A stretch of 64,000 nucleotides of DNA from an uncultured Legionellales bacterium (GTDB lineage: Bacteria > Pseudomonadota > Gammaproteobacteria > Eutrophobiales > Eutrophobiaceae), in NCBI GenBank assembly GCA_913046215.1, contig CAJWRJ010000003.1, forward strand, positions 19,994 to 83,993, read 5' to 3'. The position numbers and the translations under genes were made by a program. The notes beneath the pieces are model-generated. The model was not told the origin of the DNA. It was given only the letters and a program-made list of their open reading frames with translations, and did not search any database. Each line of letters opens with the position of its first letter. Positions within the stretch are counted from its first letter, which is position 1. Below, piece after piece: positions 19,913-22,161 of the stretch.

Positions 19913-20530
19913 ATGAAAAGAATAACTAATTATCTAACATTTTTCTGCCTTATTACATTTTTTAGTCAAGTGCATGCTTTTGACGGCTATATTGAGATTA
20001 CACCACCGCAACCAACACAAGCGGAAAACCAAATCGAAGTTCTTGAAATATTTTGGTATGGATGCCCACATTGCTATGATTTCGAACCATTCATAAATGA
20101 CTGGCTTAAAACAAAACCTGACAATGTAATGTTCAGAAGAATGCCGGGTATATTTCAAAAAAGTTGGATCCCGCATGCTAAAGCCTACTATACTGCAGAA
20201 AAATTAGGTGTGTTAAATAGTATACATAATGCAATGTTCAAGGCAATTCACCAAAAGAAGAAAAAATTATCAAATGATTCATCCATAAAAAAGTTTTTTA
20301 TAAATAACAATGTAAGCAAAAGTGATTTCAAAAAAACTTATGAATCGGATGAAATCAATACTAAAATAAAACAAGCCTATATAATGGGTCAACGTTACAA
20401 AATAACTGGAGTTCCTGCAGTTATAGTCAATGGAAAATATATGGTGAGTGGCACGACAGCTGGCGGTTTCGAAAATATGATTAAGGTTATTAATTTATTG
20501 ATTGAACAAGAAAGTTCAGTCACAGAATAG
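19913..20530 (+). CDS. dsbA: thiol:disulfide interchange protein DsbA
   Basis: Signal peptide and active site WYGCPHC. I use the ATG at 19913 rather than the track's TTG at 19898. Confidence 0.9.
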   Translation: MKRITNYLTFFCLITFFSQVHAFDGYIEITPPQPTQAENQIEVLEIFWYGCPHCYDFEPFINDWLKTKPDNVMFRRMPGIFQKSWIPHAKAYYTAEKLGVLNSIHNAMFKAIHQKKKKLSNDSSIKKFFINNNVSKSDFKKTYESDEINTKIKQAYIMGQRYKITGVPAVIVNGKYMVSGTTAGGFENMIKVINLLIEQESSVTE

Positions 20531-20575
20531 AATCCTATAAACGCCCTATTCATATTCTTAATCTCGCAAAAAAAA

Positions 20576-20598
20576 AGGACCTTAATGGTCCTTTTTTT
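20576..20598. terminator. bidirectional intrinsic terminator between dsbA and pqqA
   Basis: AGGACC-ttaat-GGTCCT, flanked by an A-run upstream and a T-run downstream, so a U-tract follows the hairpin on both strands. Confidence 0.7.
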
Positions 20599-20621
20599 GT
20601 CTTCTTTGCGAGAAGGAAGTT

Positions 20622-20696
20622 TTATTTGTTGTTAATGTACATGGTTACTTCAAAACCAAAACGAATATCGCTGTACTCAGGTGTTTCCCATTTCAT
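20622..20696 (-). CDS. pqqA: PqqA-like peptide (coenzyme PQQ precursor family), 24 aa
   Basis: Manual translation gives MKWETPEYSDIRFGFEVTMYINNK, which carries the PqqA hallmark D-[IL]-R-x-G-F-E-V-T-M-Y (Glu-x3-Tyr). GAGGG lies 8 nt upstream of the ATG. It is too short for the ORF track. Confidence 0.75.
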   Translation of the reverse strand: MKWETPEYSDIRFGFEVTMYINNK

Positions 20697-20748
20697 GTTA
20701 TTACCCTCTTTTTTTAACGTTAAAAAAATACTACTTGTGCCTTAAGTA

Positions 20749-20766
20749 ATGCAGTTAACGTGCCAA
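20749..20766 (-). promoter_or_regulatory. sigma-54 (-24/-12) type promoter directed at pqqA
   Basis: The minus strand reads TTGGCACGTTAACTGCAT, against the consensus TGGCACG-N4-TTGCW. It matches 11 of 12 defined positions with correct GG/GC spacing. The predicted transcription start is near 20739. Confidence 0.5.
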
Positions 20767-20850
20767 ATTAGTAAAAATTATGATAATTCTATATAAAACA
20801 ATAATTTATGATAATTTTATAAATCTAAAAAAAAAATAATGTGTTTTTTT

Positions 20851-20889
20851 TTGGTTCCGAATAACCAATAAAATGGTTAAAAACAACCA
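20851..20889. promoter_or_regulatory. two phased palindromes (possible enhancer/activator sites)
   Basis: TTGGTT-ccgaat-AACCAA (20851-20868) and TGGTT-aaaaac-AACCA (20874-20889). Their centres are 22 bp apart and lie about 120 and 142 bp upstream of the predicted sigma-54 start. Confidence 0.35.
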
Positions 20890-21000
20890 ATTTTATAAAA
20901 ATATGGATATAAAATACAGATTTAGTCACCACTTTATGCTAAATTCGCCGCCTTTTTTTATAGATATATATAATGAAATTATGATCAAAATACATAAAAC

Positions 21001-22161
21001 TTGGGATATAAAGCTTTGAGTTCACCTCGAATTGGAATTATTGGCGGGGGGCAACTAGCAAAGATGATGGCGATTTCAGCCATGAAATTTGGCTTTAATA
21101 TTTTTATACTCGAAAAATCACAAAATAGCCCCTCTGAAAGTTTAGCATCTGAAATACTTTATGGTGACTGGGATGACCCTAATAATTTACTGGCGCTAGC
21201 AAAAAAGGTGGATATTGTAACTTTGGAAAATGAATTTGTTGATGCAAAAAGCCTAAAAGTACTGGAGGAAAAAGGATATAAATTATTCCCATCCTCTACT
21301 ACTATTAATTTGGTACAAGATAAGTTAATGCAGAAACAAGTCTTAAGCGATGCTGGTGTTAAAGTAGCGCCATTCGCAAAAGTCGATTCTAAAAATGATA
21401 TCTATCGTGAAGCTAAAAGACTTGGCTGGCCAGTAATTTTAAAAACGAGACGTAATGGTTATGACGGAAAGGGTAACGTAACAATACGGGACGAAAAAGA
21501 TATAGATTCTGCATGGGAAAAATTAAATGGTGATCAACGAAAATTATATGTTGAAGGATTTTGCGATTTTAAATCTGAATTAGCTACAATGGTCACTAGA
21601 AGTATCGAGGGTGAAATTGCAATGTACCCTATTGTCGAATCAATACAGAATAATCATATATGTCACACTGTAAAAGCTCCTGCCAGTATTAAAAAAGAAA
21701 TTGCTGACATGGCATATGAATTATCAAAAAAAGCAGTCGAAATCATCAATGGTGTCGGAACAATTGGGATTGAAATGTTTTATAAAGATGGGGAAGTGAT
21801 ACTTAATGAAATGGCTCCCCGAGTACATAACAGTGGTCACTATACTATAGAGGCATGCGAATGTTCGCAATTTGAGAATCACATCAGAGCAATTCTTGGT
21901 TTACCTCTCGGTTCAACAAAAATGATTGTGCCAGCGGCGGTTATGGTTAATATGCTTGGGAGAGGAAATGGTGATGGATCTCCAAATGGAATTGAAGAGG
22001 CATTAAAAATAAATAACGCATATATACATGTTTATGGAAAACAAACTAGCAATACAGAAAGAAAAATGGGGCATGTCACTGCATTGGGATCAAGTATTAA
22101 TGAAGCAGAAAAAGTTGCTAGTAAAGCTGCGTCATTAATTTATTTTGGAGAAAAATCATGA
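21001..22161 (+). CDS. purK: N5-carboxyaminoimidazole ribonucleotide synthase
   Basis: ATP-grasp protein with [12 protein letters not shown]. It overlaps purE by 4 nt. There is no in-frame ATG near the start, so the start is the TTG at 21001 or the TTG at 21016. Confidence 0.9.

What the first reader, a model, noticed from the sequence alone, without database searches (positions are those of the whole stretch)
20622..20696. Unlisted 24-codon PqqA-like peptide gene with no pqqBCDE neighbours
The minus strand encodes MKWETPEYSDIRFGFEVTMYINNK, with a GAGGG Shine-Dalgarno 8 nt upstream and a bidirectional terminator downstream. The sequence carries the PqqA family hallmark: Trp near the N-terminus, D-I-R-x-G-F-E-V-T-M-Y, and the Glu-x3-Tyr pair that is cross-linked to make PQQ. 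In known producers, pqqA normally sits directly upstream of pqqB/C/D/E. Here it is wedged alone between dsbA (convergent) and purK (divergent), and nothing PqqB-E-like appears anywhere in the 64 kb. It is either a split pqq system or a PqqA-like peptide used for something else, for example a different RiPP maturase or a regulatory or decoy peptide.
Basis: partly seen in the sequence, partly recalled or inferred. Interest (0 to 1): 0.7.

Follow-up and report, generated by a model that had tools for sequence, protein, structure and literature searches.

The report
Detached pqqA gene, split PQQ pathway
This 24-codon gene is a genuine precursor peptide for the cofactor PQQ that, in a whole group of uncultured marine bacteria, sits away from the enzymes that process it; this is an ordinary split pathway, not a new kind of peptide system.

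Summary
Window 20622-20696 (-) encodes MKWETPEYSDIRFGFEVTMYINNK, with a ribosome-binding site and a strong bidirectional terminator. No pqqB-E gene lies in the 64 kb. The peptide scores far above the curated cut-offs of both PqqA models. NCBI already annotates it as PqqA in a closely related marine MAG.

The peptide is under strong purifying selection: it is identical in genomes whose loci have 32-68 % GC, with up to 14 synonymous and no amino-acid changes. All 23 genes of this "INNK" type lie away from pqqB-E, in two conserved contexts.

The missing enzymes are elsewhere. On one circular 2.71-Mb chromosome of a relative, a pqqBCDE operon without pqqA lies about 31 kb from an INNK-type pqqA. 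Thirty-three marine pqqBCDE loci, several matching the window's 34 % GC, contain no pqqA-like ORF.

I could not show the operon in the window's own genome, so that step is inferred (about 0.85). Orphan pqqA genes are already known in methylotrophs.

One small extra: a conserved sigma-54-type promoter motif precedes the gene.

Verdict: ordinary detached pqqA of a split pqq system; low interest.

The parts
20622..20696 (-). pqqA coding sequence (24 codons plus TAA stop): MKWETPEYSDIRFGFEVTMYINNK. Glu16 and Tyr20 are the residues cross-linked to make PQQ.
   Evidence: sequence, ORF. (PF08042 43.1 bits; TIGR02107 46.9 bits). (variable sites at codon positions 1/2/3 = 3/3/19 among 22 distinct relatives). 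(NCBI calls the gene in L005).
20704..20708 (-). Shine-Dalgarno GAGGG, 7 nt upstream of the ATG
   Evidence: A GAGG/GGAG core is conserved at the same place in L040, L070, L119 and L126.
20750..20765 (-). Sigma-54-type -24/-12 promoter-like element TGGCAC-GTTAA-CTGCA, 54 nt upstream of the ATG (function inferred)
   Evidence: 2 matches in 64 kb against 0.07 expected; an invariant block in five lineages within an otherwise diverged spacer; found in 17/32 INNK/INNR/ISNR-type loci against 1/80 Methylococcales-type loci.
20709..20728 (-). Perfect AT-rich palindrome TTTTTTTAACGTTAAAAAAA in the predicted 5' leader, just upstream of the Shine-Dalgarno; role unknown
   Evidence: The core TTTTTTAACGTTAAA is shared with L126, and TTTTAAC with L070.
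20562..20613 (.). Bidirectional intrinsic terminator shared by dsbA (+) and pqqA (-). The core stem-loop is at 20570-20598, flanked by an A-run and a T-run.
   Evidence: 1 terminator-like site against 0.2 expected. (MFE -25.1 kcal/mol, z = -6.34).
19913..20530 (+). dsbA (thiol:disulfide interchange protein), convergent neighbour; part of the conserved cyt c4-dsbA-pqqA-purK-purE arrangement
   Evidence: PF01323. (synteny in L040, L070, L119, L126).
21001..22161 (+). purK (N5-carboxyaminoimidazole ribonucleotide synthase), divergent neighbour. Public gene calls start at 21016.
   Evidence: ATP-grasp, PurK_C..

Best explanation
This is the functional pqqA gene, the ribosomally made precursor of pyrroloquinoline quinone, of an uncultured marine gammaproteobacterium whose pqq genes are split.

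The peptide is encoded as its own small transcription unit between dsbA and purK. That unit has a sigma-54-type promoter-like element, a short leader, a strong Shine-Dalgarno and a terminator.

pqqB, pqqC, pqqD and pqqE form a pqqA-less operon elsewhere on the chromosome. In relatives that operon lies among tetrahydromethanopterin, methanofuran and molybdopterin genes.

The peptide would be bound by PqqD and cross-linked Glu16-Tyr20 by the radical-SAM enzyme PqqE. It would then be trimmed and converted by PqqB and PqqC to PQQ, most likely for periplasmic quinoprotein dehydrogenases such as methanol dehydrogenase.

Shown: family membership, purifying selection, conserved detached position, and the split arrangement on a relative's chromosome.

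Inferred: that the window's own genome has the operon, the sigma-54 dependence, and the enzyme that uses the PQQ.
For: (1) Family membership: PF08042 43.1 bits and TIGR02107 (equivalog) 46.9 bits, each more than twice the cut-off. NCBI names identical or near-identical peptides PqqA.

(2) Selection: the identical peptide occurs in loci with 32-68 % GC. Among 22 distinct gene sequences, variable sites are 3/3/19 at codon positions 1/2/3. There are up to 14 synonymous and 0 amino-acid changes against the window, while the flanks are at random identity.

(3) Conserved detachment: none of the 23 INNK-type genes has a pqqB-E gene in its 8-kb block, whereas Methylococcales/Cycloclasticus-type pqqA is almost always followed by pqqBCDE. 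The cyt c4-dsbA-pqqA-purK order recurs in four other species whose PurK is 63-69 % identical.

(4) Direct split system: on circular contig ERZ26052130:ctg19852c (2,709,625 bp), pqqBCDE lies at about 2,001,580-2,004,640 and an INNK-type pqqA (one residue different) at about 2,035,998-2,036,072. Logan contig DRR227397_109 has the same layout.

(5) Mirror image: 33 marine pqqBCDE loci contain no PqqA-like ORF. Those loci include populations at 34-35 % GC. One of them is in a MAG with the same NCBI label ('Legionellales bacterium') as the window-related MAG. For two of the three populations (P0336, P0243) the tetranucleotide match to the window is r = 0.85-0.87, inside the within-window range of 0.85-0.90; for the third (P0280) it is 0.81, just below.

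(6) No alternative maturase in either conserved neighbourhood.

(7) Precedent: orphan pqqA copies in M. extorquens AM1 (PMC11317620) and 3-12 pqqA copies against one pqqBCDEFG in Methylophilaceae (PMC4109929).
Against: The operon was not shown in the window's own genome. No PqqC with an accession from the window-related MAG GCA_002698845.1 was found among the listed hits.

Only the best 120 of 8,000 PqqC candidates could be seen per search.

The complete chromosome with the direct evidence carries its pqqA in the other conserved context (sensor kinase / sigma-54 regulator), not the dsbA-purK context.

Composition cannot tell the window's lineage from another AT-rich lineage: L129 scores equally.

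The sigma-54 element is a consensus match only, and no rpoN or enhancer-binding protein lies in the window.
Confidence: 0.85

Rival explanations
1. The genome lacks pqqBCDE. The PqqA-like peptide is the substrate of a different, unrecognised maturase, or has a PQQ-independent role such as a signal, metal binding or a decoy.
For: No pqqB-E within about -25 to +43 kb of the gene. No PqqC was traced to the window-related MAG. PMC11317620 speculates about an extra, lanthanide-related role of orphan PqqA.
Against: The peptide retains every canonical PqqA position and is one residue from a peptide that shares a chromosome with a pqqA-less pqqBCDE operon. Neither conserved neighbourhood has a radical-SAM enzyme, a PqqD-like RRE protein, a peptidase or an exporter. 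Compositionally matching marine populations have the operon and need a pqqA.
Confidence: 0.06
2. It is one of several pqqA paralogues in the genome, an extra copy for dosage or differential regulation, as in Methylophilaceae. The genome would also hold the second conserved locus type (next to the sensor kinase / sigma-54 regulator).
For: L070 has two tandem copies. Two conserved contexts exist for identical peptides. L129 (context 2) is compositionally as close to the window as the window is to itself. Multi-copy pqqA is documented (PMC4109929).
Against: This rival is a refinement of the best explanation, not an exclusive alternative, so its 0.3 is the chance that extra copies exist and overlaps with the best explanation's 0.85.
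Confidence: 0.3
3. A chance or decaying small ORF with no function, or merely a regulatory upstream ORF for purK or dsbA.
For: It is very short, and several gene callers skip it.
Against: HMM scores are twice the cut-offs. Change across deeply diverged genomes is synonymous-only. It has its own Shine-Dalgarno, promoter-like element and terminator. It is on the opposite strand to both neighbours. Its GC3 of 0.42 against 0.24 for window genes suggests expression-linked codon choice.
Confidence: 0.01

Closest known systems
Canonical pqqA of pqqABCDE(F) operons (Klebsiella, Pseudomonas, Acinetobacter, Methylococcales); families PF08042 / TIGR02107
   Same: Same family by curated HMMs. Same length class. 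Same W-x-x-P ... D-x-R-x-G-F-E-V-T-x-Y core with the Glu-x3-Tyr pair. It is 75-80 % identical to the Methylococcales and Cycloclasticus peptides, which sit directly before pqqB.
   Different: It is not adjacent to pqqB. It forms a monocistronic unit between housekeeping genes, and the operon in relatives starts at pqqB with no pqqA.
Orphan or multiple pqqA copies of methylotrophs: M. extorquens AM1 pqqA2/pqqA3; Methylophilaceae with 3-12 copies; Methylovorus MP688 with 5 copies
   Same: pqqA genes located away from the single pqqBCDE(FG) cluster and separately regulated (PMC11317620, PMC4109929).
   Different: I know those organisms to keep an operon-linked pqqA as well; this is from memory and was not checked in the papers read. 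In this gammaproteobacterial group every pqqA of this type seen is detached and every operon seen lacks pqqA (33 loci), so the detached gene is the precursor supply rather than a spare.
RiPP systems with precursor genes dispersed away from the maturase (for example prochlorosin ProcA genes and the single ProcM in Prochlorococcus; recalled from knowledge, not tested here)
   Same: A small precursor-peptide gene is unlinked from the enzymes that modify it, in a streamlined marine genome.
   Different: A different chemistry and product. Here one invariant peptide yields one cofactor, not a library of variable peptides.

Membership tests
PqqA (PF08042 / TIGR02107) | Scores above the curated cut-off of the family models | tested here: met
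   PF08042 43.1 bits against 21.1; TIGR02107 46.9 bits against 20, matching the full length of both models.
PqqA (PF08042 / TIGR02107) | Conserved Glu-x-x-x-Tyr pair that becomes PQQ, in a peptide of about 20-40 residues | tested here: met
   E16-V-T-M-Y20 in a 24-residue peptide. These positions are invariant in all 120 related loci, but the search pattern required them.
PqqA (PF08042 / TIGR02107) | Maintained as a protein-coding gene (purifying selection on the amino-acid sequence) | tested here: met
   Variable sites 3/3/19 at codon positions 1/2/3. Up to 14 synonymous and 0 non-synonymous differences from the window, while the flanks are unalignable.
PqqA (PF08042 / TIGR02107) | Immediately upstream of pqqB/C/D/E (typical arrangement, not strictly defining) | tested here: not met
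   No PqqB-E in the 64-kb window or in any of the INNK-type 8-kb blocks.
PqqA (PF08042 / TIGR02107) | pqqB, pqqC, pqqD and pqqE present in the same genome | tested here: inconclusive
   Met on a relative's circular chromosome about 31 kb away and in compositionally matching marine populations. Not demonstrated for the window's own genome.
PqqA (PF08042 / TIGR02107) | Bound by PqqD, cross-linked by PqqE and converted to PQQ | not testable with these tools
   Needs biochemistry or genetics.
Spare 'orphan' pqqA copy (as in Methylorubrum and Methylophilaceae) | An operon-linked pqqA also exists next to pqqB | tested here: not met
   33 pqqBCDE loci of relatives have no PqqA-like ORF in the DNA fetched, up to 8 kb on each side and less where the contig is short. 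Not tested in the window's own genome.
Sigma-54-dependent promoter | -24 GG and -12 GC elements with canonical spacing (TGGCAC-N5-TTGCW) | tested here: met
   TGGCACGTTAACTGCA at 20750-20765 (-). 2 matches in the window against 0.07 expected. Invariant across five lineages.
Sigma-54-dependent promoter | rpoN and a cognate enhancer-binding activator in the genome; transcription start about 12 nt downstream of the GC | not tested
   No Sigma54_activat protein in the window. In the other conserved context, pqqA is adjacent to a HAMP histidine kinase and a sigma-54 response regulator. No transcript data were available.

The most novel reading that the evidence does not exclude
The window's own lineage (the dsbA-pqqA-purK type) has lost or never had pqqBCDE. 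It keeps a perfectly conserved, sigma-54-controlled PqqA peptide for a PQQ-independent purpose. Examples would be a secreted precursor processed by neighbours, or a metal- or lanthanide-related peptide.
Probability: 0.05. Interest if true: 0.7.

Novelty: new member of a known kind. Interest (0 to 1): 0.2.

Why it matters
The practical value is mainly for annotation. Gene callers that skip 24-codon ORFs miss this gene, and it is tens of kilobases from pqqBCDE. Automated metabolic reconstructions of these abundant, uncultured marine gammaproteobacteria would therefore score PQQ biosynthesis as incomplete. Conversely, a lone pqqA can look mysterious. Recognising the clade-wide split layout resolves both problems.

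The conserved sigma-54-type element suggests that precursor supply is the regulated step of PQQ synthesis in this group. So does the neighbouring sensor kinase and sigma-54 activator in the other locus type. This would be a modest, testable addition to what is known about pqqA regulation.

It does not open a new class of system.

Tried and rejected
(1) The single genome-collection scan used a pattern that was too broad. 

(2) The PqqC profile search returned only the top 120 of 8,000 candidates, all Methylococcales- or Cycloclasticus-like. Amino-acid composition did not pick out products of AT-rich genomes.

(3) Direct look-up of the peptide failed: it is too short for the search for homologous proteins and for contig look-up. 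A tandem-duplicated query worked but returned no cultured, named organism.

(4) Names and accessions are hidden for window-encoded proteins. I worked around this with variant proteins from L005. No PqqC with an accession from that MAG turned up.

(5) Tetranucleotide signatures could not tell the window's lineage from the L129 lineage, so no PqqC cluster could be assigned to a specific pqqA lineage.

(6) The Thioglobus/SUP05 idea for the source organism had no support in the literature search.

(7) No paper linking pqqA to a sigma-54 promoter was found. The CbrAB effect in P. aeruginosa is described there as mostly indirect.

(8) Rfam has no family reaching its gathering score in the intergenic region. 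The weak hits are driven by the terminator hairpin.

(9) Rejected: an alternative maturase in the neighbourhood. The neighbours are dsbA, purK, a GGDEF protein and a photolyase. In the other context they are a sensor kinase, a sigma-54 regulator, cytochrome b561, YkuD, DUF302, an ExbB-like protein and a VWA-FHA protein.

Full report

Yes. The minus strand of window 20622-20696 carries an ATG-initiated 24-codon ORF, MKWETPEYSDIRFGFEVTMYINNK.
- GAGGG lies 7 nt upstream of the ATG.
- Downstream there is a G+C-rich stem-loop flanked by an A-run and a T-run. It was found as the only terminator-like site in the region, against 0.2 expected. It folds at -25.1 kcal/mol, z = -6.3.
- It lies between the 3' ends of dsbA (+) and the small gene (-), so it can serve both. 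purK and purE follow divergently.
- The window is 34.1 % G+C.

**2. Is it a PqqA?**

Yes. The peptide scores 43.1 bits on Pfam PF08042 (gathering score 21.1). It scores 46.9 bits on the NCBIfam equivalog model TIGR02107 (cut-off 20), over the whole length of both models. In the NCBI annotation of a closely related marine MAG (GCA_002698845.1, locus L005), this exact 24-aa gene is already called and carries PF08042. The gene callers used for the ENA assemblies of the same population skip it. Near-identical peptides in the large protein collection are named 'pyrroloquinoline quinone precursor peptide PqqA' by NCBI and JGI.

**3. Are the other pqq genes in the window?**

No. Pfam annotation of the whole window shows housekeeping genes only: hemA, prfA, cytochrome c4, dsbA, purKE, uvrD, phosphoribulokinase, hemCDXY, pyrBC, pilTU, proC, metXW, slmA, argB, dut, coaBC, fpg and ggt. 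tblastn with PqqB, C, D and E references finds nothing in the window at E <= 1e-5. Those references came from a canonical operon and were verified against NCBIfam. No PQQ-dependent dehydrogenase is present either.

**4. Conservation.**

A degenerate pattern scan of one genome per species returned 120 loci. They split into two peptide types.
- Peptides ending ...MYIYNR (Methylococcales, Cycloclasticus) are almost always followed directly by pqqB-C-D-E.
- Peptides of the window's type (MKWETPEY[S/N]DIRFGFEVTMYINNK, 'INNK type', 23 genes in 22 sequences, window included) never have a pqqB-E hit in their 8-kb block.

The identical 24-residue peptide is found in loci with 32 % to 68 % G+C. Among 22 distinct gene sequences the variable sites are 3, 3 and 19 at codon positions 1, 2 and 3. 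One relative differs from the window by 14 synonymous and no amino-acid changes, while the flanking 75 nt are at random-level identity.

**5. Where do INNK-type genes sit?**

There are two main conserved contexts.
- **Context 1, as in the window:** cytochrome c4 - dsbA - pqqA - purK - purE. It occurs in four other species whose PurK is only 63-69 % identical. A GGDEF protein or a photolyase is sometimes inserted. One species has two tandem pqqA copies (L070).
- **Context 2, at least 11 species:** a HAMP histidine kinase plus a sigma-54-dependent response regulator on one side. On the other side are cytochrome b561, YkuD, DUF302, an ExbB-like protein and a VWA-FHA protein.

A few other loci fit neither context; L020 and L062, for example, sit next to three type-II-secretion-ATPase-like (pilT/U-like) genes.

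Neither main context contains a radical-SAM enzyme, a PqqD-like protein, a peptidase or an exporter. So there is no candidate for an alternative maturase.

**6. Where are the enzymes?**

PqqC hits from uncultured Gammaproteobacteria lie in pqqB-C-D-E operons among tetrahydromethanopterin, methanofuran and molybdopterin genes. They have no PqqA-like ORF in the DNA fetched on either side.

The decisive result is on the circular contig ERZ26052130:ctg19852c (2,709,625 bp).
- It carries this operon at about 2,001,580-2,004,640.
- It carries an INNK-type pqqA (core MKWETPAYSDIRFGFEVTMYINNK, one residue different from the window's) at about 2,035,998-2,036,072.
- The two are about 31 kb apart, and the pqqA is in context 2.
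- A second assembly (Logan DRR227397_109) shows the same layout.

So this peptide type co-exists with a pqqA-less pqqBCDE operon on one chromosome.

**7. Getting closer to the window's lineage.**

A search seeded with the most AT-rich-looking PqqC found many open-ocean variants. Three clusters were examined.

| PqqC cluster | Loci | G+C |
|---|---|---|
| P0336 | L153-L162 | 34.5 % |
| P0280 | L143-L152 | 35 % |
| P0243 | L163-L171 | 34 % |

- All are pqqB-C-D-E operons in the same gene neighbourhood, from Tara and other marine metagenomes. None of these loci contains a PqqA-like ORF. With the four, that makes 33 loci.
- P0336 is MAJ90912.1 from an NCBI MAG labelled 'Legionellales bacterium'. 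The window-related MAG has the same label (UvrD MAS84023.1), but it is a different assembly.
- Tetranucleotide correlation of the P0336 and P0243 loci with the window is 0.85-0.87. That is inside the range for window fragments against the rest of the window, 0.85-0.90. For the P0280 loci it is 0.71-0.81.
- On equal-length references another AT-rich lineage (L129) is equally close, so composition supports the link but cannot prove it.
- No PqqC with an accession from the window-related MAG was found.

The presence of the operon in the window's own genome is therefore an inference, which I put at about 0.85-0.9.

**8. How it most likely works.**

The gene is a self-contained unit.
- **Promoter:** 54 nt upstream of the ATG lies TGGCAC-GTTAA-CTGCA, a close match to the sigma-54 -24/-12 consensus. 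Only two matches occur in 64 kb, against 0.07 expected.
- **Conservation of the promoter:** in the five context-1 lineages the block TGGCAC-N5-CTGCATT is invariant within an otherwise diverged spacer. A strict pattern finds it in 17 of 32 INNK/INNR/ISNR-type loci but in 1 of 80 Methylococcales-type loci.
- **Context 2:** these loci have TGGCAY at a similar distance with a weaker -12 half. They sit beside a sigma-54 activator and its kinase.
- **Codon use:** the gene prefers C-ending Asn and Tyr codons, with GC3 of 0.42 against 0.24 for window genes. That fits high expression, though it rests on few codons.

PqqA is consumed stoichiometrically, one peptide per PQQ. A separately and strongly transcribed, separately regulated precursor gene therefore makes sense. 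PMC11317620, citing Ge et al. [quoted passage not shown]

The sigma-54 dependence, and the use of PQQ by a methanol or other quinoprotein dehydrogenase, are inferences.

**9. Comparison with what is known.**

The peptide is a member of the PqqA family by every feature I could test. The one typical feature not met is adjacency to pqqB, which is not defining. Detached pqqA genes are already documented: orphan pqqA2/pqqA3 in M. extorquens AM1 (PMC11317620), and 3-12 pqqA copies against a single pqqBCDEFG in Methylophilaceae (PMC4109929).

What differs is this. In this gammaproteobacterial group every pqqA of this type seen is detached, and every operon seen lacks pqqA. The detached gene is therefore the precursor supply rather than a spare copy. 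I found no paper describing a sigma-54 promoter for pqqA.

**10. Verdict.**

- The 'something else' half has no support.
I rate it a new member of a known kind.
- Interest is about 0.2.
- The residual novel reading is that this particular lineage lacks pqqBCDE. It keeps about 5 % probability until a complete genome is checked.

Noticed in passing
window 20750-20765 (-); L040, L070, L119, L126 and others: A sigma-54-type -24/-12 element (TGGCAC-N5-CTGCA) is conserved 54-80 nt upstream of detached INNK-type pqqA genes. It is essentially absent upstream of operon-linked Methylococcales pqqA (17/32 against 1/80 loci). This suggests enhancer-dependent control of PQQ precursor supply.
   Followed up: partly
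L030, L036, L054, L084, L093, L105, L110, L122, L129, L136 (about 160 nt upstream of pqqA): In the second conserved context, pqqA lies next to a divergent HAMP histidine kinase and sigma-54 response regulator. Most of these leaders (not L036, L084 or L093) carry two hairpins (CACA...TGTG and CCC...GGG) between a TGGCAY element and the Shine-Dalgarno. This may be an mRNA-stabilising or regulatory structure.
   Followed up: no
L070 2895-2969 and 3006-3080: Two tandem pqqA copies encode the same peptide with synonymous differences, between purK/photolyase and dsbA. This is a local duplication of the precursor gene.
   Followed up: no
L132-L135, L143-L171: Marine pqqB-C-D-E operons without pqqA sit among methanofuran/H4MPT-biosynthesis-like genes (4HFCP synthase, DUF447, DUF6513, pterin-binding), moaCDE and a formate-dehydrogenase-like molybdoenzyme. 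This points to uncultured planktonic methylotrophs. The NCBI label 'Legionellales bacterium' for these MAGs is probably a misplacement.
   Followed up: partly
window 20709-20728 (-): A perfect 20-nt AT-rich palindrome, TTTTTTTAACGTTAAAAAAA, sits immediately upstream of the pqqA Shine-Dalgarno and is partly conserved in L126 and L070. It could be a protein-binding site or a weak leader hairpin.
   Followed up: no
window 11598-11613 (-): The only other exact match to the sigma-54 consensus pattern in the window (TGGCACGGTAATTGCT) lies inside the ABC-transporter permease gene (11097-12788, -). It could be an intragenic sigma-54 site or chance.
   Followed up: no
window 20780-21019 (+) (= L001/L005 8623-8862): A 79-aa ORF with no Pfam hit is called by some pipelines in the pqqA-purK spacer. 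It overlaps the pqqA promoter region on the opposite strand and is probably a spurious call.
   Followed up: no
window 37763-37833 (+): An Rfam SNORD36 (eukaryotic snoRNA) match barely above its gathering score (31.7 against 30 bits, E = 0.42), inside the glutathione synthetase gene. Almost certainly a false positive.
   Followed up: no
window 20622-20696 (-): pqqA uses C-ending Asn and Tyr codons exclusively (4 of 4; P about 0.002 from window codon usage). Its GC3 is 0.42 against 0.24 for the window's genes, consistent with selection for high expression.
   Followed up: partly
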